Shown: in pieces, positions 26,934 to 46,997 of the stretch
Position numbering within the stretch: position 1 is the first letter of the stretch
Layout: every line of letters begins with the position of its first letter
From: Escherichia phage VerenaGrendelmeier_Bas101
Sequence record: PQ850631.1
Length of the DNA: 64,000 nucleotides
Reading direction: 5' to 3' (one strand)
Notes under the pieces: model-generated
What the model saw: only the letters and a program-made list of their open reading frames with translations
Databases searched by the model: none
What the model was told of the DNA's origin: nothing
Position numbers and translations under genes: made by a program

Positions 26934-27794
26934 TTAAAACTCTTCTGCGTCGGTCGGAGTTTCATTGACAGGACCAGCGGCACCGCTTGCTTCTTCCTGC
27001 TTGCTGCGGTCAATGTTAACGTTGCCGCCAACTACGTCATTGTGGAATGCCTTGGCGACTTCGTACAGACCTTTATCCTGCACCAGACCTTCCAGCTCAA
27101 ACTTAAGAACTGACCAGGTGTTGCCGTCTTTGGACTGAGATGCAGTGCCCATGCGAACAATGTTCATAAAGGTCGGCGGCGTTTTCAGACCCTGCGGAGT
27201 CTGAACTTTCTTCTGCTGCAGAGCGGTCATCAGCATGCGAGACGGCTTGATCATGGAAGAAGTCAGAGACAGCATTGCGCTACCAAATTCACCAGTTTCT
27301 TCGTTCAACAGAATTACGAAGTGGTTGCGTGTATCTGCGTAGTAAGGCGATTTCTTCTCGTGCACCTTGCCGTTTTCGTCCGGCACGAATACCTTACCGT
27401 TGATCTCAACAGCGCGGCCTGCCGCGACTTCTGCATCAACGTGCTCTTTGGTGAATTCACCTTTAAAGCCTTTATCATCGGACTCGCGACCGCCCCAAAG
27501 GATGAAGGTGCGTTTGAATGCGCAAGGGATGATCTGCACGCCTTTCTTGCCGTCATACAACTCACCAGTAACGGTGTTGTAAAGCATGCCAGCTTTTGCG
27601 CCAGGAACGTGTTTTGGATCATCTTCGTCGACCATAGGAGACATCTTCTGCAGTACGACGATAAAAGGAATGGCATACGCATCGGCATCGGCACCTTCAA
27701 AACCAGCGCCAAAATCGGTCATGTCGACAAAATCAGCCATAGCGGACATCTGGGTGTTTTTCACTGCAACTTCGGTGGTTTCTTTCTTAGACAT
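26934..27794 (-). CDS. putative single-stranded DNA-binding protein (acidic C-terminal tail ending in Phe)
   Basis: 286 aa; C-terminus ...NETPTDAEEF resembles the T7 gp2.5-type acidic tail with terminal aromatic residue. Confidence 0.4.
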   Translation of the reverse strand: MSKKETTEVAVKNTQMSAMADFVDMTDFGAGFEGADADAYAIPFIVVLQKMSPMVDEDDPKHVPGAKAGMLYNTVTGELYDGKKGVQIIPCAFKRTFILWGGRESDDKGFKGEFTKEHVDAEVAAGRAVEINGKVFVPDENGKVHEKKSPYYADTRNHFVILLNEETGEFGSAMLSLTSSMIKPSRMLMTALQQKKVQTPQGLKTPPTFMNIVRMGTASQSKDGNTWSVLKFELEGLVQDKGLYEVAKAFHNDVVGGNVNIDRSKQEEASGAAGPVNETPTDAEEF

Positions 27795-28747: not shown

Positions 28748-30271
28748 TTAATTCATCTTTTTGCCGTCGAGGATGTGATCAGCAAGCATAGACTTCATAC
28801 TTAGTGATCGCTGAATTTCTTCGTCGATGGTATCAACACCAATAAAATCAACATACAACACGCTTGATTTGGTGCCGATGCGGTGATTTCGGTCTTCGGA
28901 TTGCTTGCGCAGCTCGTTGTCATAGTTGCAAGAATAATAGATTGCCAAGTCGGCAGCGGTAAGCGTGATTCCGATGCCTGCCGCTGCAGCGTGGCAAACC
29001 AACACCTGTGTTCCACCATTCGCGACTGTGTTCTTCTGGAAGTCATCAATTAAGAACTCGCGCTGCTCTTTGGACGTTTCACCGTTGTATACACCAGTGA
29101 CCACGCCTTCAGACCCAAGCCAGTCCTTAATCTGGTTCATCTCTTCCTTAAAGATGGCCCAAACGATGAATTTGCGCTCTGGGTCGTCTTCCAGCACCCC
29201 TTCCACATAGTCCTTAAAGGCCGTGAATCGTGGGTTGTCTTCCATGTAGACCATCTCATCATACACCTTAACAAAGCCTGATGTCACCTGCTTCATCTTA
29301 GTGCGAGATGCGATCATCTCAAACTTAACGTTTTCTTCTTCGCCTTTGTACTCCATCAGATAGTTGTACTCATTCTTGAGTTCATCGTATACATCGCGCT
29401 GCTTAGGAGACAACTCGAAGTCGATAAACTTGTACACCTTCTCTGGAAGGTCCGGCAAGTATTCCGCTTTTGTCGCACGGAAATAGTGCGGCTCCATCAG
29501 CCGGATAAGCTTGTCAAGGTTTTTATACATCGGTCGGCCAAACTGGTCTTTGCGCGGCACTTGCGGAATGCCATAACCGTTGCCGCCGATTTTCTTGAGA
29601 ATGGCCTGCATCTCTGGGTCGTGCGCTTCAAGCAGCACTGTGAATTCAGAGTTGAATGCACGGAACGATTTGGTGCCGAGCAAGCCAGCTTCAAGGAAGT
29701 GATACTGCATGTAAATATCAGCAGGCGAGCGCGGCAGCGGCGTGCCGGAAAGTATGCGACGGGCCTTTGCCAGCCGTCCCAATTCTACAACCTTGATGGA
29801 GCGTTTGGCTGTGTTATTTTTGATACGCGTCGATTCGTCAATGATCATCAAACAGCGGTACTTCTTCAGGACAGACTCGATGTGTTGATAACCGACTGGT
29901 GTGTTGACAGTATCGATGTTGAATGAGAAGATGCGCGCAGGCACTTCACCTTCAGGATAGTGATCAGCAAACATCTTCTCCCAAATGGCTTTACCCTTTT
30001 TAGTTTTCATCTTGTCATTTCCGCGCCAGTAATGACCAATCCATTTAATGGAAAGGTGTTCTGGTGCTTCACGACGAATCCAGTTCGAGTGGACACCGTT
30101 AGGAGCGATGACAACCATGGCATCAAATGCGCCAGCGGCGAAGTGTTTTTCAAACTCTGCCAAAGCAGTCCAGGTTTTACCAAGACCCTGTTCCATAAAA
30201 TAAGCAAAGTATTTTCTGCGGCCTGCTTTATCAAGCGCCAATAATTGGTGGCGCATCCCTTGTGTTTTCAT
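28748..30271 (-). CDS. SNF2-family helicase
   Basis: Walker A QGLGKT, DExx-like IIDESTRIKN, LSGTPLP, motif VI EDRNHRIG. Confidence 0.7.
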   Translation of the reverse strand: MKTQGMRHQLLALDKAGRRKYFAYFMEQGLGKTWTALAEFEKHFAAGAFDAMVVIAPNGVHSNWIRREAPEHLSIKWIGHYWRGNDKMKTKKGKAIWEKMFADHYPEGEVPARIFSFNIDTVNTPVGYQHIESVLKKYRCLMIIDESTRIKNNTAKRSIKVVELGRLAKARRILSGTPLPRSPADIYMQYHFLEAGLLGTKSFRAFNSEFTVLLEAHDPEMQAILKKIGGNGYGIPQVPRKDQFGRPMYKNLDKLIRLMEPHYFRATKAEYLPDLPEKVYKFIDFELSPKQRDVYDELKNEYNYLMEYKGEEENVKFEMIASRTKMKQVTSGFVKVYDEMVYMEDNPRFTAFKDYVEGVLEDDPERKFIVWAIFKEEMNQIKDWLGSEGVVTGVYNGETSKEQREFLIDDFQKNTVANGGTQVLVCHAAAAGIGITLTAADLAIYYSCNYDNELRKQSEDRNHRIGTKSSVLYVDFIGVDTIDEEIQRSLSMKSMLADHILDGKKMN

Positions 30272-30690
30272 GACAATTCCTCTAAATACTTGATGATGTG
30301 ATGAATAGTTCCCTTCACGATTATCTCACGTTGAACGTCTGCAATATTATAACGCTTTAATTCAATAGAAGGGTGGACTAAATAAAACATCTTCTCAGAA
30401 TCAACCTTAAGCAGAACAAATGATGGGTATTTCCAATCATTCCACGAAGAAAGAAAGCTGCATTGGCCTTTCTCAAATGCATTTCTGAAAGGTGCAGTGG
30501 TGGCCCTTGCAGGCCACGATTCAAAGAACTTCATTTCAAGCCAAAAGCCGCGCCCTTTCCGGTTTGTGCCGATTACGTCCGGCACGCCATCACCAGTCAT
30601 CGACTCGATTCTTTGAAGCTTCAATACCGATTCTGAATGCTTCTTCAAAGGCACGAATATGTATTTCTGCTCACGGTTATTTGTTGCCAT
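30268..30690 (-). CDS. VRR-NUC domain nuclease
   Basis: GVPDVIG...GFWLEMKF matches the PD-(D/E)xK VRR-NUC pattern. Confidence 0.6.
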   Translation of the reverse strand: MATNNREQKYIFVPLKKHSESVLKLQRIESMTGDGVPDVIGTNRKGRGFWLEMKFFESWPARATTAPFRNAFEKGQCSFLSSWNDWKYPSFVLLKVDSEKMFYLVHPSIELKRYNIADVQREIIVKGTIHHIIKYLEELS

Positions 30691-33574
30691 CTGGATACAC
30701 CTGTTTGATCACATCAACGATGAACATGTCAATGCCTTCAAGCTTACGACCTTTCATCAGGAAGAATGCGCCGTTCCCGACGTTTTCAGCAATGTACTTC
30801 CCGTACTTCTGGAACTTCTCTGGACGAATCCTGAAGCGCATTGGCGAGTCGGTCGAGTCGTCTTTGCACATAAGGTCGATGAACTGAGTCTCAAGCTTGT
30901 TCCCGTACTGGTCAAACTCTGCGTAGCGGCCATCAGCTTGAAGACCCTTTTTAAGCTTTCCGTGCTTTGTATAAATGCCGCGCTCAAGACGTTTACGGAT
31001 GCGTGTTGCTTCGTTCTCGTCTGCAAGCACTTTCTTTGTCAACTTGCCGATTACTATTGCGCGCTCGTCATCACCGACTTCCTTCATCTGGCGTATTGAA
31101 GCACCGGAAGTAACGCCAATCAGATAGGGGTCATTATACGCCCAGCCGAACTTGGTGTGCATCTCTGTAAGGTCGCCGTATTTAACTTCAGCATTGGCCA
31201 ATGCACCCTTTTGCTTTTGCGTTAAGGTTCCGGCTTCACGTGCTTCGATATACTTCATCGCCTTCACCATTCCGTACCCTTTCGCGTTCATGATGCCGCC
31301 GATTAGCTTTCCGTTCGCGATGGTCCAGTTCATCGAAGAGTGATCAGGGTCGATTGGAACGTAATCCACGCCTTCCTTCGCAAGTTCACGTAATATCGCA
31401 ATCGTCTGGTCTTCGTCCTTAGCAGCGCGTAAGCAGGCAGCGGCAAATTCCAACGGGTAGTGTCGCTTAAGCCACAAGGTCCAGTAGGTCACGACCGCGT
31501 ATGACACGGAGTGTGACTTGTTAAAGCCCCATGACCCGAACGTAGCCATCGCTTGCCAAAGCTTTCTTGCATCCGCTTCCGGTACGCCGTTATTGATTGC
31601 GCCTGCAACAAAGTCCTCGCCAAGCTTGTTAAAGTATTCTTCACCCTTACGGCCTGACATCGCCTTACGTACAGCGGACGTTTTCGCCCAGTCAAATGAA
31701 CCAATCTCTTTAACAACGGCCATGATTTGCTCTTGGTAAAGAAACACGCCGTAAGTCTCTTTTAAGTATGGCTCAAGCTGCGGCACGTCGTATTCAATCG
31801 GCGCACGCCCTGCCGCGCGTTCAATGTATTTCTGGGCCATACCGGATGACAACGGGCCAGGTCGACCCAAAGCTGTCAGGTTGTCGATTTTGTTAAAGTT
31901 ATCGACGTGAACAAAGTTTGTTACTGAACGTACAGCATCACCTTCAAACTGGAAGATGCCTGACATCTTGTTTTCGTTAAGAATGTCAAGGACGCTTTGA
32001 TCATCAAGCTTGATTCCGTAGAGCGTTTCAGCATCAATAACGCCTGTATCAGAAATAATGCCGAGAGTACGAAGGCCCAACGCATCAAGCTTCAAAAGGT
32101 TAAGGTATTCGCTGTCAGGCTTATCGATTTGCGCAATCCCTTCTGCAGTTACAGTACAGTAATCAGAGATTGGGTCATTACACACAATGATTCCCGCTGC
32201 GTGAACACCTGTGTGAGACGGGTGAATCTCAAGGTCACCCATGCAACGCGCGGCGTCAGGATATTTCGCCACGAACTCTTGACCCGTGGTCGTTGTTGCA
32301 AAGGTATCCTCCAGGCCGTGACCATAACGGGCGTCACCGGATGAGTATTCAAGCAGTGCGTTTTTAATGTTGGCCGTTTCGTGGTATCCAATGTTGAACT
32401 TCTTACCAACCTGCGCCATTACTGAGTTGGCCTTAAGCGTGTTGATGTTGCCAAGCTTTGCAACGTTCATTTCGCCGTATTTCTCTTTAAGATAATCAAA
32501 CACCATATAGCGTTTGGTATCTTCAAAGTCGATGTCGATGTCAGGAAGGTCGGCGCGGCTTACGTCGATGAATCGGGCAAACAGTAGCTTATACGGGATT
32601 GGGTCCACTTCCGTGATGCCGAGGCAATAGCAAACAAGTGAACCAGCCGATGAGCCGCGCGCAGGACCGACGAGCATTTTTGTTTTTGCGAATCGCACAA
32701 GGTCCGCTACCACCAGAAAGTATGAGTCGAAATCTTTCAGCTGAATCTGGTGAATCTCTTCGTTGAAGCGGTCCTCATATTCCTGAGTCCATTCTTTGAT
32801 GTGACCTGCTTTTAGACGGTACTCCATCCCCTCACGAGCAAGCTTTACCATGTCACCAGCAAGGTGAATAATCGGTGCCTTACGCAATTTCAAGTCAAGT
32901 CCGACTATGCCGTTTGCTATGTCAACAGCATTGGCCGTTGCCTGATCAAGTTCATCTTCAGTCAAGATGCCTTTAAGCTGTTTGCGCAAGTCTTCCGCGT
33001 CAACGATGCAATGCGGCTTGACCGTGTCGCGCACTTCCCAAGCATAAGCAAAGTCAACGTGCTCAGGTGAAGGCATGTGGTTGTATCCGGTTAAAACCAG
33101 CGGCCTTCCACCGCTACGATGAGCCAATGCCTGGCGCTTTGCCAAAAGGAACGATGATGGGTTGACGTCTATATAGTCGTAGTCCTCTGGCCGCAGCAAC
33201 TCCACGGCACCGCCACAGAATTTAACGACGCCATCGAGCGCACCGAACTCTGCACGGGTAAGCCCACCGCGCTGCGTTGAAAGTGTTGTAGCATTGTAAA
33301 AAGATTTTAAGTCAAGGGCCAATATCCAAGCCTTCGGTTTGAATCCCTTTTTAGGGTCCGCATCAGGGTCGATGATTGGAATCTCCATCCCAAACATAGG
33401 CTTAATATCATTTTTCTGGCATTCCTTTTCCCAGCGAACGTGACCCCATGTGTTGTTATCAACTAATGCCGCGACTTCGCAGCCCAACTCTTTGAGCCGT
33501 GCTATAATTTCAGGATGCCGTCCATAAACTTCTTTGAACGTGTAACCGCTGCGAACTCTCAATTGTGGAAACAT
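30677..33574 (-). CDS. dnaE: DNA polymerase III alpha subunit-like (DnaE family)
   Basis: 965 aa; PHP-like N-terminus; catalytic block GPARGSSAGSLVCYCLGITEVDP...DLPDIDIDFE parallels E. coli DnaE. Confidence 0.8.
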   Translation of the reverse strand: MFPQLRVRSGYTFKEVYGRHPEIIARLKELGCEVAALVDNNTWGHVRWEKECQKNDIKPMFGMEIPIIDPDADPKKGFKPKAWILALDLKSFYNATTLSTQRGGLTRAEFGALDGVVKFCGGAVELLRPEDYDYIDVNPSSFLLAKRQALAHRSGGRPLVLTGYNHMPSPEHVDFAYAWEVRDTVKPHCIVDAEDLRKQLKGILTEDELDQATANAVDIANGIVGLDLKLRKAPIIHLAGDMVKLAREGMEYRLKAGHIKEWTQEYEDRFNEEIHQIQLKDFDSYFLVVADLVRFAKTKMLVGPARGSSAGSLVCYCLGITEVDPIPYKLLFARFIDVSRADLPDIDIDFEDTKRYMVFDYLKEKYGEMNVAKLGNINTLKANSVMAQVGKKFNIGYHETANIKNALLEYSSGDARYGHGLEDTFATTTTGQEFVAKYPDAARCMGDLEIHPSHTGVHAAGIIVCNDPISDYCTVTAEGIAQIDKPDSEYLNLLKLDALGLRTLGIISDTGVIDAETLYGIKLDDQSVLDILNENKMSGIFQFEGDAVRSVTNFVHVDNFNKIDNLTALGRPGPLSSGMAQKYIERAAGRAPIEYDVPQLEPYLKETYGVFLYQEQIMAVVKEIGSFDWAKTSAVRKAMSGRKGEEYFNKLGEDFVAGAINNGVPEADARKLWQAMATFGSWGFNKSHSVSYAVVTYWTLWLKRHYPLEFAAACLRAAKDEDQTIAILRELAKEGVDYVPIDPDHSSMNWTIANGKLIGGIMNAKGYGMVKAMKYIEAREAGTLTQKQKGALANAEVKYGDLTEMHTKFGWAYNDPYLIGVTSGASIRQMKEVGDDERAIVIGKLTKKVLADENEATRIRKRLERGIYTKHGKLKKGLQADGRYAEFDQYGNKLETQFIDLMCKDDSTDSPMRFRIRPEKFQKYGKYIAENVGNGAFFLMKGRKLEGIDMFIVDVIKQVYPDGNK

Positions 33575-34116
33575 TATTTACTCCAGATGTCATATACGCC
33601 AATTTGTTGGCAGACTTTGTGCAGTAATATTACGTCGTCTAATGCACGGTGTTTCTGTTCATATTTTCCGAAATATAATTCATACAGCTCTTGAAGCTTA
33701 ACTCTTCGGCCAAAAATAGGCAAGGTTTGCTCAACTGTACAAATGTTTATTTCTGGAAAATTAACATCATCAAGCGTAAGTCCTTCGCGCTGTAGTGCAT
33801 AATCAAGAATGTTTTTATCGAACGCATGGTTGTGCGCGATAGTGGCATCCGTCTTCTTGAAGATTTCTTTTAGCTGCGGGACAAAATTGATGAATGGTGG
33901 ATTGCACTCAAGGTCTTCATTTGTTAATCCGGTAATCTTTGTGATAATTTCTTCAATCACGATTTCAGGATTAATTATGAATTCAAACGTTTCAAGAATC
34001 TCTTTGCCGTCTGTCAACAGACCTGCAAATTCAATAGGGCGCGGCTGCATCCCAAGCGGCGCTTTCGGGTGCACGGTCAATCCGGTTGTTTCGAAGTCAT
34101 AAGGGAGAAATAACAC
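33574..34116 (-). CDS. dnaQ: DnaQ-like 3'-5' proofreading exonuclease
   Basis: Exo motifs DFETTGL, AHNHAFD, HRALDD. Confidence 0.75.
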   Translation of the reverse strand: MLFLPYDFETTGLTVHPKAPLGMQPRPIEFAGLLTDGKEILETFEFIINPEIVIEEIITKITGLTNEDLECNPPFINFVPQLKEIFKKTDATIAHNHAFDKNILDYALQREGLTLDDVNFPEINICTVEQTLPIFGRRVKLQELYELYFGKYEQKHRALDDVILLHKVCQQIGVYDIWSK

Positions 34117-35567: not shown

Positions 35568-36440
35568 CTATTTATTGAAATTAATATTGTGGGTGTTGAC
35601 GAGACGTTCACACATGGCGCTGTAAACACCATCATCGTGTATAGAGTCTTCGTGCTTCAGGCCGCTGATTGCAAAGCGTGTAAGCTTGACAATCTTAAGC
35701 TCGAACAGATGCCACATGTGGTAGTCTTCCGGCGTTTTCAACGTTACGCCATTAGGGAAAAGCACCTGCATAACCTGGCCTACCATCACAGCGTTATCGC
35801 CATAGACAGCGTTACGCTCACGGAAAGTCGCGGCCATCGCATCAAGAATATCGGCGGCGGTTGCCGGAGATTGTTTGATTTCCACTGCTTTAGTCTCTTC
35901 TTGCCCCGTTGCGCTTGGATCAACTGCTAATCGTTGCACTACTTCACCTGCCTTGCAAAGATTAAATGTAAAAGCGATTTTATTTTGAGCAACGGAATTA
36001 TAATCCATAGCTTCTTTACGCATCGCCGCGAGTACGTCTTGTCTGTCGTCAAACACATTAATGATTCGATAATCGCCGTGACGCAATGCGTAATATAGCC
36101 ATTCAGACTTCATAATAGTTGATGGACGTTTGTCGCCATAGTCTCTCATCTTGATTGTAAATTCATCAAAAGGGAAAACATTGTCCAGACGTTCAAAAGT
36201 CACTTGTCTGTATTTTTCTGGCCTTGCAGTCCAATATTCAACCGCCTCACCGCGAAGAGATGCCGACTCTACTGCTGATGCAATGTGAGGATAGAACTGA
36301 TCATAACCAATACCGCTGTAATAATCATCATAGTCTGACAACGGACCTGCCACCTTGATGCGGTCTAAGCGCCAACGGTCATCAAACAGCGTTCCGTCAA
36401 GGTCGAATACGTTTAAAATTTCGCTGTTTTTAATGCTCAT
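35568..36440 (-). CDS. HAD-family phosphatase fused to a C-terminal domain of unknown function
   Basis: Motif I FDLDGTLFDD, later NVFDDRQDV; ~140-aa C-terminal extension. Confidence 0.55.
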   Translation of the reverse strand: MSIKNSEILNVFDLDGTLFDDRWRLDRIKVAGPLSDYDDYYSGIGYDQFYPHIASAVESASLRGEAVEYWTARPEKYRQVTFERLDNVFPFDEFTIKMRDYGDKRPSTIMKSEWLYYALRHGDYRIINVFDDRQDVLAAMRKEAMDYNSVAQNKIAFTFNLCKAGEVVQRLAVDPSATGQEETKAVEIKQSPATAADILDAMAATFRERNAVYGDNAVMVGQVMQVLFPNGVTLKTPEDYHMWHLFELKIVKLTRFAISGLKHEDSIHDDGVYSAMCERLVNTHNINFNK

Positions 36441-37240
36441 CCTTTTGATACTCCATCTTTAGCAACTGGATTGTTGGTGATTGGCATCGCACTCCAAAAC
36501 TGGATGCGTAACTCTTCTTGCTGTGCCGTGGTATCCATCCAATCACGATACCAAGGGCAATGGGCTTTGCCATGACGAGGAAACGCGCATTTACCCATAC
36601 CGATGCATTGCGGCTGTAATAATGGATTTGCCCACGGGTGCACCTTGAGGACTTCCGCAACCATTGCTCGGAATACTTCTTGATACTCGCCTTGTGTGCG
36701 CGTGCACAAGCGGTTGGAAGCCATCTGTTGCAGCGTTCGCAAGTTGAACTTTGCCATGATATGCGTTTGCATATTAGAAGGCAACACGGCACGTGCATCT
36801 TGAATCTCTGCGCCAGCCGCGCGAAGCTCTTGATACAAAGCATCGATAGTCGCCATCGCATCATCCCACTTCTCTGCCAGTTCAGCGGCCTTCTCGTCAT
36901 GACGAGTCCATCCCTTTGGATCATCCTCTGGGTAAGTAAACTTAGCAGGGCGAATCGCATCAAATGCAGACGACTCCTGAGCGCGGCTGGTGCGTTCTTG
37001 ATATGCGCCTGTGCGTGTGCGCACCATCTGATGGGTCATATTCTTTGATACATCAGTGATGTCAAAGATATAGTCCACAAAGTCAAAAGGCGACTTGATT
37101 GTATCAAGCATGTAGCGCCAGTGCTCTTGCTTCTCTGATTCTGTCATCTCAGAGACTGGCTTACCAGTCATGCGCGTGTTCTTTGTTTCCAGCAAAAGGT
37201 CAAGTGCATCTTGGGTGTATCGAATTAATTCAACTTTCAT
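36437..37240 (-). CDS. thyX: ThyX-like flavin-dependent thymidylate synthase (variant RTR motif, C-terminal Cys/His extension)
   Basis: RTRTGAYQERTSR aligns with the ThyX RHR-X7-8-S motif; ARAVLPSNMQTHIMAKFNLRTLQQM aligns with the ThyX LP/N.R.L block; extra C-terminus QCIGMGKCAFPRHGKAHC. Confidence 0.55.
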   Translation of the reverse strand: MKVELIRYTQDALDLLLETKNTRMTGKPVSEMTESEKQEHWRYMLDTIKSPFDFVDYIFDITDVSKNMTHQMVRTRTGAYQERTSRAQESSAFDAIRPAKFTYPEDDPKGWTRHDEKAAELAEKWDDAMATIDALYQELRAAGAEIQDARAVLPSNMQTHIMAKFNLRTLQQMASNRLCTRTQGEYQEVFRAMVAEVLKVHPWANPLLQPQCIGMGKCAFPRHGKAHCPWYRDWMDTTAQQEELRIQFWSAMPITNNPVAKDGVSKG

Positions 37241-39895: not shown

Positions 39896-41080
39896 TTAAC
39901 GCGCTTTCAAATCACGGTACACGGTCAGATTCTTCTTAGCACGGGTGATTGCGGTGTACATCATCTTGGAGTACGGAACGCCGCGCAAGATTTCTTCCAG
40001 CACGCACACATTATCCCACTCGCTGCCTTGCGATTTGTGCACCGTGATGACATAGCCATAGTCCATCCCGCCAACAGCGCGTTGCGCTTCTTTGCGCACT
40101 TCCTGATCAGTAGAGAAGGAAAGAGGATTAATCTTAACCTTTATATCTTTACCATCAGTCAATGAACGCAAGTTGACATACATTATTTCATTCGACTCAT
40201 CTTCATCCCTTTCAAAGTCCGGCACTGGCTCATAGCCAATAACAATCCCTTGCTCGCCATTACAGAATCCTGGCCCGTGTTGGTTGAAGGTGCAAATAAC
40301 CTTCTCGCCGATTCCTGGCATTGGTGTTATACGTCCGCTCACTTGCCGTAATAATGAATTCCATTTATCTTTGGTGCTATTATAGGAGCAAATAATTTGA
40401 TCATCTTCGCCCATGAATTTCTTCAATGCAGTAACGCGCGGCGATTCTGCCAATACTTTGACGTCATCGTATTCACGCGGAGGAAGGCGGTTGCCTTGGC
40501 GAACGAAGAAGGAAGCACGGATGATGTTGGACTCTTTCCCTTGCCGCATGATTTCTGTTAACAGTACGTCAACGGCTTCTTCGGTAAAGTAGGCGGCGGC
40601 TTTTACCGGAGGGACTTGTCCAATGTCGCCTAATGCCAGCACAGGGATGCGGTGATCAAGAAGGCGCTCTGTGTCCCACTCGCCAACCATTGAAGCTTCA
40701 TCAAGGACTACAAGATGCGGCTTTTCGTCCAGCTTTGACTTTCTCGAGAATATTGGCTCATTGTCGTCATTTACGCCGCGCACGTTATAGATGAACTGGT
40801 GAAGGGTCTTAGCGCCACGACAACCTTTTTGCTTTAATCTGCTTGCAGCCTTTCCGGTCGGCGCAATATAGATAGCGCCGTACTCACCGACACAACGGCG
40901 CACAATCTCGCGAGCAATAGAGGTTTTACCAGTCCCTGCATAGCCAGCGATGAAAAACACGCGCTTCGTCGTTTTACCGTCTTGCAATCGCTTGTACCAT
41001 GCAACGGCCTTTTCGATGGCGTCAATTTGTTGCGCGTTAAACTGAATCACTGGCTCATCATTAAATTCTGGAATGTTCAT
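39896..41080 (-). CDS. SF1 helicase, Dda/RecD-like
   Basis: Walker A GYAGTGKTS, Walker B VVLDEASMV, C-terminal VITVHKSQGSEWDNV and YTAITRAKKNL. Confidence 0.7.
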   Translation of the reverse strand: MNIPEFNDEPVIQFNAQQIDAIEKAVAWYKRLQDGKTTKRVFFIAGYAGTGKTSIAREIVRRCVGEYGAIYIAPTGKAASRLKQKGCRGAKTLHQFIYNVRGVNDDNEPIFSRKSKLDEKPHLVVLDEASMVGEWDTERLLDHRIPVLALGDIGQVPPVKAAAYFTEEAVDVLLTEIMRQGKESNIIRASFFVRQGNRLPPREYDDVKVLAESPRVTALKKFMGEDDQIICSYNSTKDKWNSLLRQVSGRITPMPGIGEKVICTFNQHGPGFCNGEQGIVIGYEPVPDFERDEDESNEIMYVNLRSLTDGKDIKVKINPLSFSTDQEVRKEAQRAVGGMDYGYVITVHKSQGSEWDNVCVLEEILRGVPYSKMMYTAITRAKKNLTVYRDLKAR

Positions 41081-41406: not shown

Positions 41407-41444
41407 TTCAGGCGACCTTTGTTAGTGCGGAAATATTTTCTGAT

Positions 41445-41473: not shown

Positions 41474-41509
41474 AGTAAATCGAAATTGTGAACTAAATGG
41501 TAAATATTG

Positions 41510-41537
41510 TTGACTTTGTATCACTCAATATTATACT
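41510..41537 (+). promoter_or_regulatory. sigma70-like promoter for the rightward early block (TTGACT-16-TATACT)
   Basis: -35 at 41510-41515, -10 at 41532-41537, about 30 nt upstream of the primase gene. Confidence 0.45.
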
Positions 41538-41566
41538 GCAGGTATTGATCACCGAAGGAAAGAAAG

Positions 41567-42649
41567 ATGGCTAGTTTAAGAGAAGAAGCAAAAATAATTG
41601 AAGAGTTTTTAACAGAACTCCAAAGAGGCATCCCAGAAGATGAGCGCGTCATGACGGTGTTTGCTCCTGAAGCAACGGTACAGACCGACGAGCGCGGCAA
41701 GAAGATCAACAGCAGCTTCTGGCCTAAGCCTTGGAAGTTGGGCAAGCCGCTCATGCAGCACCAAAACGGCTATGCTTGCATCAGTTCAATGCGTAAGTCT
41801 CCCAACCCAAAGACGGGTGAGATGCGATACTGGCGTACAGAGTCGGCCTTTGGTCACGGCATGGCGATGATGGTCGACGACATCGGTCACGGTAAAGGGT
41901 CCAAAGGCGATTTAGATTTGGAGTTCTTTTTCGAGCGACTGAAGCCGACTGTCATAGTCGAGACGTCACCGAACAACCACCAGCTTTGGTACTTCTTTAA
42001 AGAACCGATTGACCATCTTATTCAGTTCAAAGCATTTCTTGGGTCTTTCGTTAACATGGTACTCAAGAAGGGCGGCGACAACACGATTAAAGACGTAACG
42101 CGCGTTGGCCGTGTTCCTGGGTGCATCAACAACAAGCGTGTGACTCACGACGGCCCCTATAAATATGTCGATGAGAACGGCGACCCGTTCCGCTGCCGAC
42201 TTGTCCATGCAGACTACTCCTTGCGCTACACCATCGAAGACATCTGTCAGGCATTCGGCTTTCACGTCGTTATGCCGCAAAAGCGTGAGATTCAAATTGA
42301 CGTAGATGAATACAAGTACGATGCTGTTTGGTATAAAATAGCCCAGCAGATTCTAGCGCGCAACAAGATGGGTGAAGGGTCTGATGGCGACGTCATCGAG
42401 AATATGTCAGGCAAGTGCCGCATAATCTGCCCTTGGGGTGAAGAACACACCAACGGCGACCCGTATGGCGCTTACTTTCGCGGCCCTATCCCTGGTGCAG
42501 AACATGAGTTTGTGTTCGGTTGCGCCCACGACTGTCACCGGAAAGGGGAAGGCAAGAAAGGTTGGACTGCTTTTGTTGAAGCAATCGTCATGCCTTATAT
42601 TGAGAATCAACTTGACATGATAAATCGTCGTGCAGGTGGCATAAAATAG
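41567..42649 (+). CDS. AEP-family primase-polymerase with C-terminal zinc-binding motif
   Basis: AEP motifs MMVDDIG, SPNNHQLWYFF and RVGRVPGCINNK (R.PG..N.K); C-terminal CPWGEEH...CAHDCH. Confidence 0.55.
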   Translation: MASLREEAKIIEEFLTELQRGIPEDERVMTVFAPEATVQTDERGKKINSSFWPKPWKLGKPLMQHQNGYACISSMRKSPNPKTGEMRYWRTESAFGHGMAMMVDDIGHGKGSKGDLDLEFFFERLKPTVIVETSPNNHQLWYFFKEPIDHLIQFKAFLGSFVNMVLKKGGDNTIKDVTRVGRVPGCINNKRVTHDGPYKYVDENGDPFRCRLVHADYSLRYTIEDICQAFGFHVVMPQKREIQIDVDEYKYDAVWYKIAQQILARNKMGEGSDGDVIENMSGKCRIICPWGEEHTNGDPYGAYFRGPIPGAEHEFVFGCAHDCHRKGEGKKGWTAFVEAIVMPYIENQLDMINRRAGGIK

Positions 42650-42707
42650 TTTGCTTTTATTTTCATAGCAACTATAATCATTTTATGAACTGAAGCAGAG
42701 GTGATTC

Positions 42708-42854
42708 ATGCAAAGCGAAGAATTGAACATCGAGGTTGAATGTCTGTTAAAGTCGTTAGAACCTAAACCAGCAGAGCTTCCGACCCTTCAAGGAGTCACG
42801 GCTCACCATCAAGCGGCTGCGGCCAAACACTACTCTGAATTTGTTAAGGAATAA
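42708..42854 (+). CDS. small hypothetical protein (48 aa)
   Basis: GAGGTG RBS, ATG at 42708, fills the gap between flanking genes. Confidence 0.3.
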   Translation: MQSEELNIEVECLLKSLEPKPAELPTLQGVTAHHQAAAAKHYSEFVKE

Positions 42855-42856
42855 AA

Positions 42857-43147
42857 ATGAACGAACCAAAAATGATGACCGTTGAAGAAGCACAAAAGCT
42901 TCGTGTTGAAAACGAGCTTAAGCTTGTCAACCAGATTCTCCCCTTGTTTGCAGGCTACGCAGTGGAGGAAGTTGTTGGTGCAATCCTTAACGTATCAACG
43001 CATGTCGCTATGAATCTTCAGGCCGAACGATTCAATACGCTGCTGACTATTAAAAACCTTACGGTCAGTGCAACGTTCACCGTTGAGCCAGTCAATTTTG
43101 ACGAAGCTTCAGCCGCAATTCAACAGCAAAGAGATCAAGAGGTGTAG
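42857..43147 (+). CDS. hypothetical protein
   Basis: ATG start. Confidence 0.4.
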   Translation: MNEPKMMTVEEAQKLRVENELKLVNQILPLFAGYAVEEVVGAILNVSTHVAMNLQAERFNTLLTIKNLTVSATFTVEPVNFDEASAAIQQQRDQEV

Positions 43148-43148
43148 C

Positions 43149-43412
43149 ATGGGTGCTTTCCGTAATGAGTTCACCTGGAACGTTACCAGCAATCTCTCGA
43201 CTTGTCCTAACTGTGCAAGCGATGTTATCAAGGTGCGGCAGCATCGCAACGCGGAGGAAGGTGCCTGGGAGGATGGCGACCTTGTAGAATGCCAGTGCTG
43301 CTCTCATGAAGGTGTTGTGGAGCTTTACGCTGGCGAAGGTTGCCCACCAGCAGAACGCACAGCACGCGTTGAATGGGATGCAACAGACTCCATTGGTGAT
43401 CCTCAACAGTAA
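43149..43412 (+). CDS. small zinc-ribbon-like protein
   Basis: CPNC...CQCC cysteine pairs; start at ATG after the upstream stop. Confidence 0.4.
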   Translation: MGAFRNEFTWNVTSNLSTCPNCASDVIKVRQHRNAEEGAWEDGDLVECQCCSHEGVVELYAGEGCPPAERTARVEWDATDSIGDPQQ

Positions 43413-43430
43413 ATTTAGGTATAGATACTT

Positions 43431-43535
43431 ATGAAAGCCGTAAAGAAATACACATTAATCATTTCCCTTGTTATCATCCTGGGGCTATTATATGTATTGG
43501 ATATGGCATATTATTTGGCAGGGGTGAGTAAATGA
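43431..43535 (+). CDS. very small membrane peptide (34 aa)
   Basis: MKAVKKYTLIISLVIILGLLYVLDMAYYLAGVSK; ATGA overlap with next gene. Confidence 0.25.
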   Translation: MKAVKKYTLIISLVIILGLLYVLDMAYYLAGVSK

Positions 43536-43822
43536 ATATTGTAATTCTTTATGGTGAAAATATCAGCGATGACGACATCGAAGTTGCCGTTGATGTTTAC
43601 GGTATCGATGAGGTGAAACGTGTTGAAGAAATTAGTGGCGCAAATCTCAATGAGATTGTCAAAGAAGCTGGTTGCCCTTCGGAAGAGATTCTGGTGGTTA
43701 CTAACGATGACCTGTCTTCTATGGATCATTTGCGCCGCATCTTCACCGATTGCCAATACCTTCATGCTGTTCAATCAGTAAACAAATTGAGAAAGGCATA
43801 CGCCAACCAATTTCCTTGCTGA
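43532..43822 (+). CDS. hypothetical protein
   Basis: ATG start. Confidence 0.4.
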   Translation: MNIVILYGENISDDDIEVAVDVYGIDEVKRVEEISGANLNEIVKEAGCPSEEILVVTNDDLSSMDHLRRIFTDCQYLHAVQSVNKLRKAYANQFPC

Positions 43823-43872
43823 TAGTTCACCAGTTATATTGCTTTAAATTGAGTTTTACTATATTAATATAC

Positions 43873-43897
43873 AACGCCAGATTTCTGGCGTTTATTT
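43873..43897 (+). terminator. rho-independent terminator
   Basis: CGCCAG...CTGGCG stem followed by TTTATTT. Confidence 0.6.
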
Positions 43898-43958
43898 ACC
43901 GCACCCTGAAAGGATATATCCATGCAACAATATAACAAAGCCGTATCAGGAGGATTAA

Positions 43959-45629
43959 ATGTCAATTAATAATGACAATCTTCCAGAGGATACAGGTGAT
44001 GAATTTGGTGCAATCTTTGACGAAATTCAAGATGCAGGCGTTTCGGAAGAAATGCAGGCAGCAGAGCAGCAAGGCACCAGAGCTAAAATCAGCCTTCAAC
44101 ACAAAGCCGTTGAAAAAGATTCAGAGCGCATGGAGTGTTACGGTGAAGAAGACTTGGTTGAAAGAGCACGCTTGCTCGCCTCACTTCAGGTAATCAAGTT
44201 CCCTCACTACAAGCCGACCAAAGATGACTTCGTTCTACAGGCAGACCGGACGAGTGACATGAACCGCTATGCGGTGTTCGACGCGTTGTTTGATAAGGGA
44301 AGTGGCATTGTTCCATTCCCTCACAAAGATACTTTTCGTGGGCGCTTAGTCGACCATCGCGGCGAAACATTCACTGACCGTACCTTGGAAGTCACAGAGA
44401 TAGTTGCCGCTGTCGACGCAGCAGGGCTGTCTAACCCAAACTCACGTCAGGTTGCTCAATCCTATAAGGAATGGGCCATGCGTTATCAGCGCGACGACCT
44501 GATGGACTTCTTCTACAAGAAGCTGCCTGAATGGGACGGTACTGCGCGCATCGAGAAATACCTTATCGAGCTATTCCGACCGTTCGATACAGAGTTAAAC
44601 CGACAAATCGGTGTGTATTTTTGGCTATCGCTCTACAACCGCCTGACCAACCCTGGCTGTCAAGCGCCAATCTCCATCGCGCTCATCGGCGGCCAGAACG
44701 CAGGGAAGAGTTATTTTAGCAAGCTGCTTTGCGAAGCTATTATGAACGACCGCCACGCAACACCGATTCCGTTGAACTTAGCCGCGCAAAACTTCAACCC
44801 GTTCTTGCGAGCTATTACGGGTCGCTCGATTATCGCGAACGTCGGCGAGATGACAGGCTTTAAAAAGGCCGACATCGAAAACATGAAAGCATTCCTGACT
44901 AAGACGGAAGATGACCTGGACTTCAAATTTGAAGATACGCAGGTTAAACCACGCCAGTGGATTGCTATCATGGACGGCAACGAATACGCAGGCATGCAGC
45001 GTGATGACACGGGCAACCGTCGTGTGTATCCTATCTTTGTTGGCCAACTCGCCGACAAGGACGGGCAACCGAACTGGTCGAAAGATTTCCAAGCTGACCT
45101 TTCCACTTTGAAAGAAGACGTTTGGCAGCTTATGGCTGAGTGCGCTGCGTGGATGGAGAAGCACGGCGAAGCAGGCTATAACGCGTTTGTTGGTGAAACA
45201 TCTCGCATGCTTACTGAGTTCAGTAAAAACGAGATGGAACGCGCTCGCGGCGTTATCCGTGATGAGATGGTTGACAACGACCTTGTTGAAGTCGTCATCA
45301 CCGCGCCTTATGATCGACATCACAGCGGACGCTGGCACATCACCAGTGGTGCTATTGCTATGGGATTCAGAGCGAAGTGCGGCAAGTCGCCTTTCTCTCG
45401 TACCCTTGCGCCGCACATGTCGAAGCTTGGTTTTGAGCCTGCAACCTATCGCAACCAGCGCGGTTACTTTACGCCGCTGATTAAGAATGAAGCAGGGGAA
45501 TACATTTCTGATTTGATGACCATCTTAGCGTATCTTATCCGCGATGAGTCTGACCCTGAAGATATTGAATTCTTGAAGAAGGTTATCGAGCGTAAACGTT
45601 CTTTGGGAAGAGATAAGGATGAATTCTGA
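43959..45629 (+). CDS. P-loop NTPase, VirE/D5-like primase-associated helicase
   Basis: 556 aa; Walker A IALIGGQNAGKSY; AGGAGGA RBS. Confidence 0.5.
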   Translation: MSINNDNLPEDTGDEFGAIFDEIQDAGVSEEMQAAEQQGTRAKISLQHKAVEKDSERMECYGEEDLVERARLLASLQVIKFPHYKPTKDDFVLQADRTSDMNRYAVFDALFDKGSGIVPFPHKDTFRGRLVDHRGETFTDRTLEVTEIVAAVDAAGLSNPNSRQVAQSYKEWAMRYQRDDLMDFFYKKLPEWDGTARIEKYLIELFRPFDTELNRQIGVYFWLSLYNRLTNPGCQAPISIALIGGQNAGKSYFSKLLCEAIMNDRHATPIPLNLAAQNFNPFLRAITGRSIIANVGEMTGFKKADIENMKAFLTKTEDDLDFKFEDTQVKPRQWIAIMDGNEYAGMQRDDTGNRRVYPIFVGQLADKDGQPNWSKDFQADLSTLKEDVWQLMAECAAWMEKHGEAGYNAFVGETSRMLTEFSKNEMERARGVIRDEMVDNDLVEVVITAPYDRHHSGRWHITSGAIAMGFRAKCGKSPFSRTLAPHMSKLGFEPATYRNQRGYFTPLIKNEAGEYISDLMTILAYLIRDESDPEDIEFLKKVIERKRSLGRDKDEF

Positions 45630-46276
45630 TGAATAAAGCAATCAACATCGCTAAATTCTTTCAACATCTTGGTGAACTGAACAAAGAAAGTGACGTTCAC
45701 GGCGAAGAAATGAACCGGATGATCTCAACCGTGTTGCGTGGCTTTGGTTATGATAAGGACTCAATCACTTGCAAGCGTACAAAGCTTGTTGATGAGTCTT
45801 ATCTTTACTACGTAGAGTTGCGCATCGGGAAAGATGTGATGATCATTGACCCTAAACTGGAAGGGGCGCACTGTTTTGGCGCTCACCCTCGTGCGAGTGA
45901 ATTCAAGGGTCGCGGTCGCAACCGAATCCAGAAGCTTGATGACGCAGGTGACTTGAACATTGCCATGTTCCTTAAAGAGTTCCTTGCGCTACCGAAGGTT
46001 GCATCATCCACTGGTCGTGATGACCCTTGCAAGATTGGATTCCGAACTAAAGATTTGCGCAATGCGCTACGCAAGAAGGGATTTGTGCCTTCTTATGACA
46101 ACGTCGCCGCGCTGATGGCTTCAATGGAGGAAGCTGAAGCGATGGACAAGGTGCGCGGCTATTTCCTGAATACAGGCTTCACCATGTATGAATGGCACAC
46201 GAAGGGATTGACTGTCGCCGACTTCATCTATTCATTAGAGCAGAAGTATGTACGCAATATGCAGGCCACAGGATAA
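45629..46276 (+). CDS. hypothetical protein
   Basis: ATGA overlap with upstream gene. Confidence 0.45.
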   Translation: MNKAINIAKFFQHLGELNKESDVHGEEMNRMISTVLRGFGYDKDSITCKRTKLVDESYLYYVELRIGKDVMIIDPKLEGAHCFGAHPRASEFKGRGRNRIQKLDDAGDLNIAMFLKEFLALPKVASSTGRDDPCKIGFRTKDLRNALRKKGFVPSYDNVAALMASMEEAEAMDKVRGYFLNTGFTMYEWHTKGLTVADFIYSLEQKYVRNMQATG

Positions 46277-46990: not shown

Positions 46991-46997
46991 GTTGAAG

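What the first reader, a model, noticed from the sequence alone, without database searches (positions are those of the whole stretch)
41567..45629. AEP primase and VirE/D5-like helicase encoded alongside a DnaE/DnaQ polymerase, SNF2 and Dda-like helicases
The phage carries a bacterial-type replicative polymerase (DnaE plus separate DnaQ) but primes with an archaeo-eukaryotic-type primase-polymerase and has three different helicase families plus a VRR-NUC nuclease and a ligase. This mosaic replisome is noteworthy; no clamp or clamp-loader gene was recognised in the window.
Basis: partly seen in the sequence, partly recalled or inferred. Interest (0 to 1): 0.4.

Follow-up and report, generated by a model that had tools for sequence, protein, structure and literature searches.

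The report
Known Wifcevirus phage replication gene set
The flagged genes are a real primase and helicase, but they belong to the already annotated replication module of a published E. coli phage genus, so the finding is ordinary, apart from an unannotated DNA-binding protein and shared tail motifs that hint at how the machine holds together without a sliding clamp.

Summary

The window is 98% identical to Escherichia phage WFC (genus Wifcevirus), and public records already name these genes. The same module occurs in Pbunavirus and related phages; 370 phage records carry the gene that lies between DnaE and SNF2. Published surveys show that mixed bacterial/archaeo-eukaryotic replisomes are the rule in phages.

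No clamp or clamp loader was found in the window or in the 4.7 kb of the genome outside it.

New here:
- The primase carries a C-terminal Cys/His zinc domain instead of RepB's helix bundle.
- The "hypothetical" gene 26934-27794 (-) is an OB-fold single-strand-binding protein.
- This SSB and the helicase both end in an almost invariant C-terminal Phe (119/119 and 114/119 homologues), as in T7 gp2.5.
- The polymerase lacks a recognisable clamp-binding motif.

Verdict: already known gene set, low interest, with one testable clamp-independent hypothesis.

The parts
41510..41537 (+). Sigma-70-like promoter (TTGACT, 16 nt spacer, TATACT) just upstream of the primase gene, in the divergent intergenic region 41407-41566
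   Evidence: 10 of 12 consensus matches. The number of such sites in the region is not above chance (9 found, 7.9 expected), so this is only suggestive. Sequence read.
41567..42649 (+). AEP primase of the RepB'/PrimPol-PV1 type, 360 aa. The catalytic domain spans about aa 25-237: motif I D104-D105, motif II ETSPxNxQ with Q139, motif III D171, Arg R179/R182. A helical linker and a C-terminal Cys/His zinc domain follow.
42404..42556 (+). Zinc-binding domain of the primase (about aa 280-330). Invariant C288, H294, C319 and H321; position 324 is Cys or His in every homologue.
42708..43935 (+). Six small ORFs of unknown function inserted between the primase and helicase genes. This insertion is Wifcevirus-specific.
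   Evidence: Annotated as hypothetical proteins in Bas98. No Pfam hits. In Pbunavirus and Carpasinavirus the two genes are adjacent or separated by one 61-aa ORF. No repeats above chance.
43959..45629 (+). VapE/VirE-family SF3 helicase, 556 aa. It has a poorly conserved N-terminus and a conserved N-domain (about aa 60-188). The P-loop core spans aa 189-407: Walker A GGQNAGKS 244-251, E297, N341, R354/R355. A C-terminal domain and a tail ending in F556 follow.
   Evidence: Pfam PF05272, E 1.6e-28. PHROG 4630. Profile against PDB 7pds, E 2e-23. Invariant residues in 20 homologues. The last residue is F in 114 of 119 homologues.
39896..41080 (-). Dda/RecD2-like SF1B helicase
   Evidence: Pfam AAA_30, AAA_19 and UvrD_C_2. 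NCBIfam RecD2, E 1e-34, below the equivalog cut-off. Conserved in relatives.
33574..34116 (-). DnaQ-like DEDD 3'-5' exonuclease, 180 aa (exonuclease domain only). Its stop overlaps the DnaE start.
   Evidence: Pfam RNase_T PF00929, E 1e-21. NCBIfam epsilon and PolC exonuclease matches. ORF coordinates.
30677..33574 (-). C-family DNA polymerase (Pol III alpha/DnaE type), 965 aa. It has PHP, palm, thumb, fingers and an HhH motif, then a C-terminal OB-like domain. It has no tau-binding domain and no recognisable clamp-binding motif.
   Evidence: Pfam. TIGR00594 475 bits against 434. Profile against E. coli alpha residues 7-859, E 6e-161. C-terminal alignment and motif scan of 25 orthologues.
30268..30690 (-). 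140-aa protein with an invariant E29, D38, E52-x-K54, Q76 pattern (candidate PD-(D/E)xK nuclease). Its gene overlaps both the DnaE and SNF2 genes.
   Evidence: Sequence. Alignment of six orthologues. No Pfam, NCBIfam or PDB match. PHROG 2165, labelled 'DNA helicase'. Present in 370 phage records.
28748..30271 (-). SNF2-family SF2 helicase/translocase
   Evidence: Pfam SNF2-rel_dom and Helicase_C.
26934..27794 (-). Single-strand DNA-binding protein candidate (Pam3 gp34-like, PF23977), 286 aa. It has an OB-fold core (about aa 42-257) and a disordered acidic tail ending in invariant F286. Public records annotate it as hypothetical.
24794..25771 (-). Minimal ATP-dependent DNA ligase (Chlorella-virus type)
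   Evidence: KVDG adenylation motif. PDB 7obn E 8e-32 and PBCV-1 ligase E 2e-23. Pfam hits are below threshold.
35568..37240 (-). PNKP-like phosphatase (35568-36440) and ThyX thymidylate synthase (36437-37240). These are nucleotide and end-processing genes within the same leftward operon.
   Evidence: Pfam PF25109 and PF02511. Conserved in relatives.

Best explanation
The flagged region is the two-gene primosome of a Wifcevirus (WFC-like E. coli myovirus). It is a split version of the 'AEP primase, zinc or PriCT domain, VirE helicase, DNA-binding domain' proteins of mobile elements.

Shown here:
- Gene 1 encodes an AEP primase with an intact RepB'-type active site (Asp-Asp, Gln in motif II, Asp, Arg). 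It has a C-terminal Cys/His domain where plasmid RepB' has a helix bundle.
- Gene 2 encodes a VapE-family SF3 ATPase with all helicase motifs intact.
- Both genes are transcribed rightward, away from the leftward operon. That operon holds the Dda-like helicase, ThyX, a PNKP-like phosphatase, the DnaQ-like exonuclease, the DnaE polymerase, a small nuclease-like protein, SNF2, an OB-fold SSB and a ligase.

Inferred by analogy with characterised relatives:
- The helicase forms a hexamer that moves 3'-to-5' on the leading-strand template, as the SaPI Rep helicases do.
- The primase uses its zinc domain to pick start sites on the displaced lagging-strand template and makes primers.
- The phage DnaE, proofread by the translationally coupled DnaQ-like subunit, extends those primers.
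- The SSB coats the single strands, and the ligase seals the fragments; how primers are removed is not known.

More speculative: the polymerase has no recognisable clamp-binding motif or tau-binding domain, and no clamp or loader is encoded. The helicase and the SSB also share a conserved C-terminal Phe after a flexible, partly acidic tail. Replisome cohesion and processivity may therefore come from tail-mediated contacts of the T7 kind rather than from a sliding clamp.
For: - Identity of the phage and its existing annotation.
- Primase.
- Helicase.
- The structure behind 7pds comes from the study of SaPI Rep helicases. That study shows hexamers, 3'-to-5' polarity and a pri-rep-ori gene order (PMC9371898).
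- Fused AEP, zinc domain, VirE and winged-helix architectures are described in PMC5862659.
- Primase and helicase genes are adjacent in Pbunavirus and Carpasinavirus.
- Polymerase and exonuclease.
- No clamp-binding motif in 25 orthologues.
- SSB.
- C-terminal Phe in 114/119 helicase and 119/119 SSB homologues. The primase and DnaE controls show no such bias.
- T7 precedent for tail-mediated helicase/SSB-polymerase contacts: PMC8472574, and Ghosh et al. 2009 as cited in PMC9917605.
- Ligase.
Against: - No biochemistry exists for any of these proteins, so every functional step is by analogy.
- The helicase tail is less acidic than T7 gp4's. In the last 12 residues it averages 2.4 acidic against 1.4 basic, and here it reads RSLGRDKDEF.
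- Clamp-binding motifs are short and degenerate, so their absence is weak evidence. The host beta clamp and loader could be used through an unrecognised motif.
- Sliding clamps are hard to detect by sequence, and many small ORFs in the window have no assignment.
- The origin of replication was not located.
Confidence: 0.7

Rival explanations
1. The phage DnaE works with the host's beta sliding clamp and clamp loader, as cellular Pol III does. On this reading the phage lacks clamp genes simply because it borrows them, and the conserved C-terminal Phe tails serve other contacts, such as SSB-helicase or SSB-primase.
For: The polymerase is homologous to E. coli Pol III alpha through the HhH motif of the beta-binding domain, up to residue 859. 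Clamps and loaders are generally absent from phage genomes of this size (PMC4889955). A semi-conserved [FY]-x-[DE]-[LI]-[FY]-P segment follows the HhH motif in many orthologues.
Against: No match to QL[SD]LF, Qxx[LMI]xF or QLxLxL in the window's protein, and no such motif at a conserved position in 25 orthologues. In the window that segment reads YGDLT and lacks the terminal aromatic. The tau-binding C-terminal domain that links alpha to the clamp loader is missing. The DnaQ-like subunit is only the 180-aa exonuclease domain, too short for a counterpart of the C-terminal extension that, in E. coli epsilon, carries the clamp- and alpha-binding parts (for the length; the role of that extension is from my own knowledge).
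Confidence: 0.3
2. The AEP protein is an origin-specific initiator primase like RSF1010 RepB'. It would recognise a few hairpin (ssi) sites to start leading strands only, and would not act as a general lagging-strand primase.
Against: The RepB' C-terminal helix-bundle (PriCT-1) domain is replaced by a Cys/His domain. No conserved hairpins or iterons were found in or around the locus. The phage encodes a ligase and an SSB, which fits discontinuous synthesis. An SF3 helicase on the leading-strand template would not recruit host DnaG, which needs DnaB (established knowledge).
Confidence: 0.12
3. The AEP protein is mainly a primase-polymerase for repair or restart, or a second DNA polymerase, as in cyanophage S-2L where a PrimPol is the best structural match. 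On this reading another enzyme primes replication.
Against: The phage has its own proofread C-family polymerase. No other primase (DnaG/Toprim) was found in the window. The gene is strictly conserved and linked to the SF3 helicase gene across the whole clade.
Confidence: 0.08

Closest known systems
Replication module of Wifcevirus / Pbunavirus-like myoviruses (e.g. Escherichia phage vB_EcoM_WFC NC_048195, HermannAdler Bas98 PQ850608, Pseudomonas PB1-like phages, Burkholderia BcepF1)
   Same: Nucleotide identity is 98% to WFC over 41000-46500. Gene order is the same, and public annotation already gives 'DNA primase' twice, 'Dda-like helicase', 'DNA polymerase', 'exonuclease subunit' and ligase. 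Primase and helicase are 45-64% identical to their Pbunavirus orthologues.
   Different: Nothing of substance differs; this is the same entity. Compared with Pbunavirus, Wifcevirus has six small ORFs between primase and helicase. It also has about 8.4 kb of small ORFs between the helicase and the next conserved gene.
RSF1010 RepB' primase (PDB 3H20/3H25; Pfam PF16793)
   Different: RepB' has a C-terminal helix-bundle (PriCT-1) domain and primes only at ssiA/ssiB hairpins. The phage protein has a Cys/His zinc domain instead, and no ssi-like sites were found. Sequence similarity to RepB' itself is marginal (E 0.05 with a profile).
PrimQH / PrimPol-PV1 primase-helicase fusions of mobile elements, and the SaPI pri-rep-ori modules (SaPI1 Rep, SaPI5 PriRep; PDB 7PDS)
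   Same: The domain order is the same: AEP, then a zinc or PriCT domain, then a VirE-type SF3 ATPase, then a C-terminal DNA-binding region. The primase lies upstream of the helicase.
   Different: Here the system is split into two genes about 1.3 kb apart and serves a 68-kb virulent phage with its own polymerase. No iteron origin lies immediately downstream of the helicase gene in this window, although related phages have iteron or AT-rich gaps there.
Bacteriophage T7 replisome (gp4 helicase-primase, gp2.5 SSB, gp5 polymerase)
   Same: No phage-encoded sliding clamp or clamp loader. In T7, negatively charged tails of the helicase contact the polymerase, and the SSB's C-terminal Phe is essential. 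The primase uses a zinc domain.
   Different: The protein families are entirely different: SF3 not SF4 helicase, so opposite polarity; AEP not Toprim primase; C-family not A-family polymerase; a gp32/RDF-like rather than a gp2.5-like SSB. No thioredoxin-type processivity factor was identified. The tail-polymerase contact is untested here.
TG1 gp25 / phiC31 gp3 recombination directionality factors (moonlighting SSBs) and T4 gp32
   Different: There are no conserved Cys/His for the zinc site seen in gp32 and TG1 RDF. The interaction tail is C-terminal and ends in Phe, whereas the TG1 RDF uses an N-terminal peptide. The phage has no serine integrase.

Membership tests
AEP superfamily, RepB'-like / PrimPol-PV1 supergroup | Match to the family profile above its curated threshold | tested here: met
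   PF16793, 124.9 bits against a cut-off of 24.3, aa 40-237.
AEP superfamily, RepB'-like / PrimPol-PV1 supergroup | AEP catalytic fold | tested here: met
AEP superfamily, RepB'-like / PrimPol-PV1 supergroup | Catalytic motifs: acidic pair (motif I), Gln replacing His in motif II, Asp in motif III, Arg in motif IV | tested here: met
   D104, D105, Q139, D171, R179 and R182 are invariant in 22 homologues. Motif II aligns with the RepB' sequence ETSPKNYQAW. The family hallmarks are taken from PMC5862659. Equivalence of the individual Asp/Arg residues to RepB' residues is inferred, not superposed.
AEP superfamily, RepB'-like / PrimPol-PV1 supergroup | PriCT-1 helix-bundle domain after the catalytic domain, as in the prototype RepB' | tested here: not met
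AEP superfamily, RepB'-like / PrimPol-PV1 supergroup | De novo primer synthesis | not testable with these tools
   Needs purified protein.
VapE/VirE-family SF3 helicase | Family profile above threshold, and homology to a solved member | tested here: met
   PF05272, 100.1 bits against 25. Profile against 7pds, E 2e-23 over positions 173-403.
VapE/VirE-family SF3 helicase | Walker A, Walker B, sensor-1 Asn and Arg finger conserved | tested here: met
   G244, Q246, G249-K250-S251, E297, N341 and R354/R355 are invariant in 20 homologues.
VapE/VirE-family SF3 helicase | Hexamer with 3'-to-5' unwinding | not testable with these tools
   Shown for SaPI Rep1 and PriRep5 (PMC9371898); inferred here.
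   DUF5906 PF19263 scores 22.1 bits, below its cut-off of 27.6.
Self-loading initiator-helicase module (SaPI pri-rep-ori) | Iteron and AT-rich origin immediately downstream of the helicase gene | tested here: not met
   Window 45560-46330 has no enriched k-mers and no AT-rich tract, and is occupied by a 215-aa ORF. Carpasina has an 11-bp iteron array and Pbunavirus has an AT-rich gap with inverted repeats at that position.
Pol III alpha (C-family polymerase, DnaE type) | Family profiles above threshold, with PHP, palm, thumb and fingers | tested here: met
   PF07733, PF17657 and PF02811. TIGR00594 475 bits against 434. E. coli alpha residues 7-859, E 6e-161.
Pol III alpha (C-family polymerase, DnaE type) | Beta-clamp-binding motif and tau-binding C-terminal domain, as in cellular DnaE | tested here: not met
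   No consensus motif in the window protein, and none at a conserved position in 25 orthologues. The protein ends after an OB-like domain at aa 965. Short motifs can escape this test.
VRR-NUC nuclease | Match to the VRR_NUC profile | tested here: not met
   No Pfam family at E up to 5 for the protein, or at E up to 1 for six orthologues. No NCBIfam or PDB hit.
VRR-NUC nuclease | PD-(D/E)xK catalytic residues | tested here: inconclusive
   E29, D38, E52, K54 and Q76 are invariant in six orthologues at 30-41% identity. This is compatible with the fold, but no structural test was done.
Sliding clamp / clamp loader | Any DnaN, PCNA, gp45 or AAA+ clamp-loader profile match in the genome | tested here: not met
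   None in 48 window proteins scanned. The region outside the window holds the terminase, 79-aa and 138-aa ORFs and the portal. Divergent clamps can escape sequence profiles.
OB-fold phage SSB (gp32 / TG1-RDF-like) | OB-fold core resembling known SSBs | tested here: met
OB-fold phage SSB (gp32 / TG1-RDF-like) | Disordered acidic C-terminal interaction tail | tested here: met
   pLDDT is below 50 from residue 265. The tail reads ...TDAEEF. The last residue is F in 119/119 homologues, with on average 3.3 acidic and 0.6 basic residues in the last 12.
OB-fold phage SSB (gp32 / TG1-RDF-like) | Zinc site as in gp32 and TG1 RDF; ssDNA binding | tested here: not met
   No set of conserved Cys/His in alignment A3. 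ssDNA binding itself cannot be tested here.

The most novel reading that the evidence does not exclude
This phage clade may run a clamp-independent C-family (DnaE-type) replisome built around a 3'-to-5' SF3 helicase. The hexameric VapE helicase and the OB-fold SSB would both use a conserved C-terminal ...x-F tail to dock onto the phage Pol III alpha/epsilon pair or onto the primase. That would supply the cohesion and processivity that cellular Pol III gets from the beta clamp and tau. It would be a bacterial-type polymerase working in a eukaryote-like fork geometry, with helicase and leading-strand polymerase on the same strand. It might also relate to the very short latent period reported for Wifcevirus phages (PMC11990801).
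Probability: 0.25. Interest if true: 0.6.

Novelty: already known. Interest (0 to 1): 0.2.

Why it matters
As stated, the finding adds nothing. The gene set is annotated in GenBank and RefSeq for this genus and its relatives, and mixed-origin phage replisomes are a published generalisation.

The follow-up does give three modest, usable points:
1. A widespread 'hypothetical' phage protein family (PF23977), labelled 'putative holin' in one record, is very likely the SSB of these phages.
2. The SSB and the SF3 helicase share a nearly invariant C-terminal Phe, which gives a concrete interaction hypothesis.
3. The DnaE of this clade lacks the features that tie cellular Pol III to its clamp and loader.

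[quoted passage not shown] A compact DnaE replisome of about eight proteins that could be reconstituted would be a useful comparative system for replication biochemistry.

Tried and rejected
1. I looked for ssi-like hairpins, iterons or other repeats in and around the primase-helicase locus (40900-46400) that could mark an origin. There were only short two-copy matches, and k-mer counts were within shuffle expectation.
2. Promoter and terminator scan of 40500-46500. Counts were not above chance; only the 41510-41537 site is well placed.
3. Rfam and tRNA scans of the whole window found nothing.
4. I considered the conserved unknown 331-aa protein (37766-38761 -) as a hidden clamp. I rejected it because it starts with a Rossmann-type dinucleotide-binding motif, MIIGGGLAGL.
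5. I considered the 281-aa protein (38897-39742 -). It is a Lys/Glu/Ala-rich repeat protein with a small C-terminal domain, which does not look like a clamp.
6. Clamp-binding motif search in DnaE and 24 orthologues found no conserved motif.
7. VRR-NUC membership gave no profile or PDB support.
8. I took the composite iteron and AT-rich elements at about 1.9-2.2 kb and 54.3-54.6 kb as candidate origins. The second turned out to coincide with the physical left end of the WFC genome (window 54482). It may therefore serve packaging or terminal-repeat formation instead; this is left open.
9. GC skew is not usable for origin finding, because its turning points coincide with switches in gene orientation.
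10. Sequence searches of the SSB candidate against PDB found nothing. Only the fold comparison was informative.

Full report
**What the window is.** The segment 41000-46500 is 98.3% identical over its full length to Escherichia phage vB_EcoM_WFC. It is 90-98% identical to 27 further records of the genus Wifcevirus. Mapping against the WFC RefSeq record gives these correspondences:
- window 54482 = WFC position 1
- window 64000 = WFC 9376
- window 1 = WFC 14071

The window is therefore a circularly joined copy of the genome that lacks only WFC 9377-14070. That stretch holds the large terminase, two ORFs of 79 and 138 aa, the portal/minor head protein, and the start of the head-morphogenesis gene. 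Korf et al. 2019 reported a terminal repeat of about 3.7 kb for WFC and WFH (PMC6563267). In window coordinates this is roughly 54482-58260.

The first, 41567-42649 (+), is an AEP primase:
- It matches Pfam RepB_primase at 124.9 bits (cut-off 24.3) and PHROG 4861 'DNA primase'.
- An AlphaFold model built on 22 homologues has mean pLDDT 84.
- D104, D105, Q139, D171, R179 and R182 are invariant.
- The segment ETSPNNHQLWY aligns with RepB' ETSPKNYQAW.
- Gln in place of the motif II His, together with a downstream conserved Arg, are the published hallmarks of the RepB'/PolpTN2-like branch of the 'PrimPol-PV1' supergroup (PMC5862659).

The second, 43959-45629 (+), is an SF3 helicase:
- It matches VapE-like_dom at 100.1 bits (cut-off 25).
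- A profile of 20 homologues matches PDB 7pds at E 2e-23. That entry comes from the structural study of staphylococcal SaPI Rep helicases.
- Walker A (GGQNAGKS, 244-251), E297, N341 and R354/R355 are invariant.

**The other replication genes.**
- DnaE is secure.
- The DnaQ-like exonuclease, whose stop overlaps the DnaE start, is secure.
- SNF2 is secure, as is the Dda/RecD2-like SF1 helicase.
- The ligase is secure once compared with solved structures: KVDG motif, 7obn at 8e-32, PBCV-1 ligase at 2e-23.
- The 'VRR-NUC' label for 30268-30690 (-) is the one assignment that profile searches do not support. There is no Pfam, NCBIfam or PDB hit for it or for five orthologues.
- Even so, E29, D38, E52-x-K54 and Q76 are invariant at 30-41% identity. 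A PD-(D/E)xK nuclease remains a reasonable but unproven reading.

**Why the finding is ordinary.**
- Public records already call these genes DNA primase (both), Dda-like helicase, DNA polymerase, polymerase exonuclease subunit, DNA helicase and ATP-dependent ligase.
- BcepF1 even carries the name 'archaeo-eukaryotic primase superfamily helicase'.
- Primase and helicase orthologues at 40-64% identity occur on 60-74 kb contigs of Pseudomonas, Pantoea, Erwinia, Serratia, Burkholderia, Xanthomonas and Luteibacter phages.
- The small gene between DnaE and SNF2 is found in 370 phage records.
- Gene order is conserved in the relatives examined. It runs: DnaQ, DnaE, small protein, SNF2, two conserved proteins and so on; and on the other side, Dda, two unknowns, ThyX.
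- Kazlauskas et al. [quoted passage not shown]
- Kazlauskas et al. 2018 describe AEPs followed by PriCT or a zinc-binding domain, then a VirE ATPase and a winged-helix domain.
- This locus is that architecture cut into two genes. In Pbunavirus and Carpasinavirus the two genes are adjacent. Wifcevirus has six extra small ORFs between them.

**What the follow-up added.**

1. *The primase C-terminus.* The primase does not share RepB's C-terminal helix bundle.
   - Residues C288, H294, C319 and H321 are invariant, and position 324 is always Cys or His.
   - The model shows short strands and a helix there.
   - I read it as a zinc domain that helps select or hold the template, as in other primases. 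The evidence is suggestive only.

2. *An unannotated SSB.* The 286-aa product of 26934-27794 (-) belongs to Pfam PF23977 'Pam3 gp34-like'. It is hypothetical in the records, and 'putative holin' in one. It is very likely the phage's single-strand-binding protein.
   - BRCA2 OB domains, CTC1, mitochondrial Rim1, baculovirus LEF-3, T4/RB69 gp32 and bacterial SSB/PriB follow.
   - The protein ends in a disordered acidic tail, ...TDAEEF.

3. *A shared terminal Phe.* The last residue is Phe in 119 of 119 SSB homologues and in 114 of 119 helicase homologues. Primase and DnaE homologues show no such preference.
   - In T7, negatively charged C-terminal tails of the helicase contact basic patches on the polymerase, and removing them lowers processivity (PMC8472574).
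   - The C-terminal Phe of the T7 SSB gp2.5 is essential (Ghosh et al. 2009, cited in PMC9917605).

4. *A stripped-down polymerase.*
   - The phage DnaE aligns with E. coli alpha only to residue 859.
   - It ends after an OB-like domain with an invariant Asp-Asp, so no tau-binding domain can be present.
   - It has no clamp-binding consensus, either in the window or at any conserved position in 25 orthologues.
   - No clamp or loader was found among 48 scanned proteins or in the missing 4.7 kb.

**Most likely mechanism.**

*Shown:* an intact AEP primase with a Cys/His domain, an intact SF3 helicase, a proofread C-family polymerase, an OB-fold SSB, a ligase, and accessory SF1 and SF2 helicases, arranged in two divergent operons.

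*Inferred from characterised relatives:*
- The helicase is a hexamer moving 3'-to-5' on the leading-strand template, as shown for SaPI Rep proteins.
- The primase works on the displaced strand.
- DnaE with its exonuclease extends the primers, the SSB coats the single strands, and the ligase seals the fragments. How primers are removed is not known.

*Speculative (about one chance in four):* the tails of helicase and SSB tether the polymerase and replace the clamp. The main rival is that the host beta clamp and loader are borrowed through an unrecognised motif.

**Origin of replication.** It was not found.
- SaPI elements place an iteron origin directly after the rep gene.
- Carpasina has an 11-bp iteron array plus an AT-rich tract at that position. 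A Pbunavirus has an AT-rich gap flanked by 25-nt inverted repeats.
- In this window the position is occupied by a 215-aa ORF with no repeat signal.
- The genes that follow the Pbunavirus gap are homologous to window 54828-55316 and 55745-56371. The positional equivalent in Wifcevirus is therefore the 54.0-54.83 kb gap.
- That gap carries iterons (ATCCGTATC), an AT-rich tract and a 30-nt box, all repeated at 1.87-2.17 kb. It also contains the physical genome end. Its role in replication, packaging or regulation stays open.

**Verdict.** The gene set is already known. Interest is low (0.2). The residual value lies in the SSB assignment and the shared C-terminal Phe, which make a clamp-independent DnaE replisome directly testable.

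Noticed in passing
window 1870-2170 and 54310-54640: Two intergenic regions share a composite element. It consists of tandem 9-mers ATCCGTATC (three at 2054-2080, two at 2136-2153, and inverted copies at 54414-54435), a box TACGGATGATACGCGT(T/C)GCCGC, the sequence CGTATAATGACGTA, and an AT-rich tract. The second copy contains the physical left end of the WFC genome (window 54482). The element could therefore serve terminal-repeat formation or packaging, replication initiation, or regulation.
   Followed up: partly
window about 54482-58260; repeats at 58039-58126 and 58182-58200: The roughly 3.7-kb direct terminal repeat reported for WFC and WFH maps here. Tandem 45-nt and 15-nt repeats lie just inside its predicted right boundary.
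   Followed up: partly
window 56844-56876 and 57291-57323: A 33-nt inverted repeat (88% complementary) brackets the small ORF 56934-57293 inside the terminal-repeat region.
   Followed up: no
window 37766-38761 (-): This conserved 331-aa protein of the replication operon, next to ThyX, begins with a Rossmann-type dinucleotide-binding motif (MIIGGGLAGL). It has no Pfam, NCBIfam or named PHROG match. It may be a flavin- or NAD-dependent enzyme of nucleotide or DNA-modification metabolism. It is 41-44% identical in Pbunavirus and Carpasinavirus.
   Followed up: partly
window 38897-39742 (-): This 281-aa protein has about 190 residues of Lys/Glu/Ala-rich repeats (DNA repeats with 96-198 nt spacing), then a small C-terminal domain and an acidic tail. 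It is conserved next to the Dda-like helicase across the clade. Function unknown.
   Followed up: no
window 27854-28411 (-): A coiled-coil protein (PF23984, 'Pam3 gp33-like') always sits next to the SSB candidate (PF23977). The pair may work together, for example as an SSB plus a mediator or annealing factor.
   Followed up: no
window 34819-35502 (-): A FabG-like short-chain dehydrogenase gene lies inside the replication operon between the DnaQ-like and PNKP-like genes. No gene at all lies between these two in the Pbunavirus locus L003, and Bas98 annotates it as a moron.
   Followed up: no
window 45629-54000 (+): About 8.4 kb of small rightward ORFs lie between the helicase and the next conserved gene (54828-55316). 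Apart from one marginal 38-residue match (53548-54000, E 3e-4) they have no counterpart in the Pbunavirus locus, where a 1-kb non-coding gap follows the helicase directly. This is a Wifcevirus-specific accessory block.
   Followed up: partly
L004 13371-13481 (Xanthomonas phage Carpasina); L003 13173-14138 (Pbunavirus): Carpasina has an array of about nine 11-bp repeats (CACCAACCCAG / CAACCCCAG), four copies of CGCGGCGTA and an AT-rich tract in the non-coding kilobase right after its VapE helicase gene. The Pbunavirus gap has an AT-rich core flanked by 25-nt inverted repeats. Both are origin-like, in the position where SaPI elements have their origin.
   Followed up: partly
proteins P0361, P0364, P0365, P0370 and others: Many DnaE orthologues are 1190-1260 aa long, and their match to the 965-aa query breaks at about residue 680-690. 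This looks like an intein or other insertion in the polymerase of related phages. The window's gene has none.
   Followed up: no
protein P0324: The Pseudomonas phage orthologue of the SSB candidate is named 'putative holin' in one GenBank record. This is probably a misannotation that may have spread.
   Followed up: no
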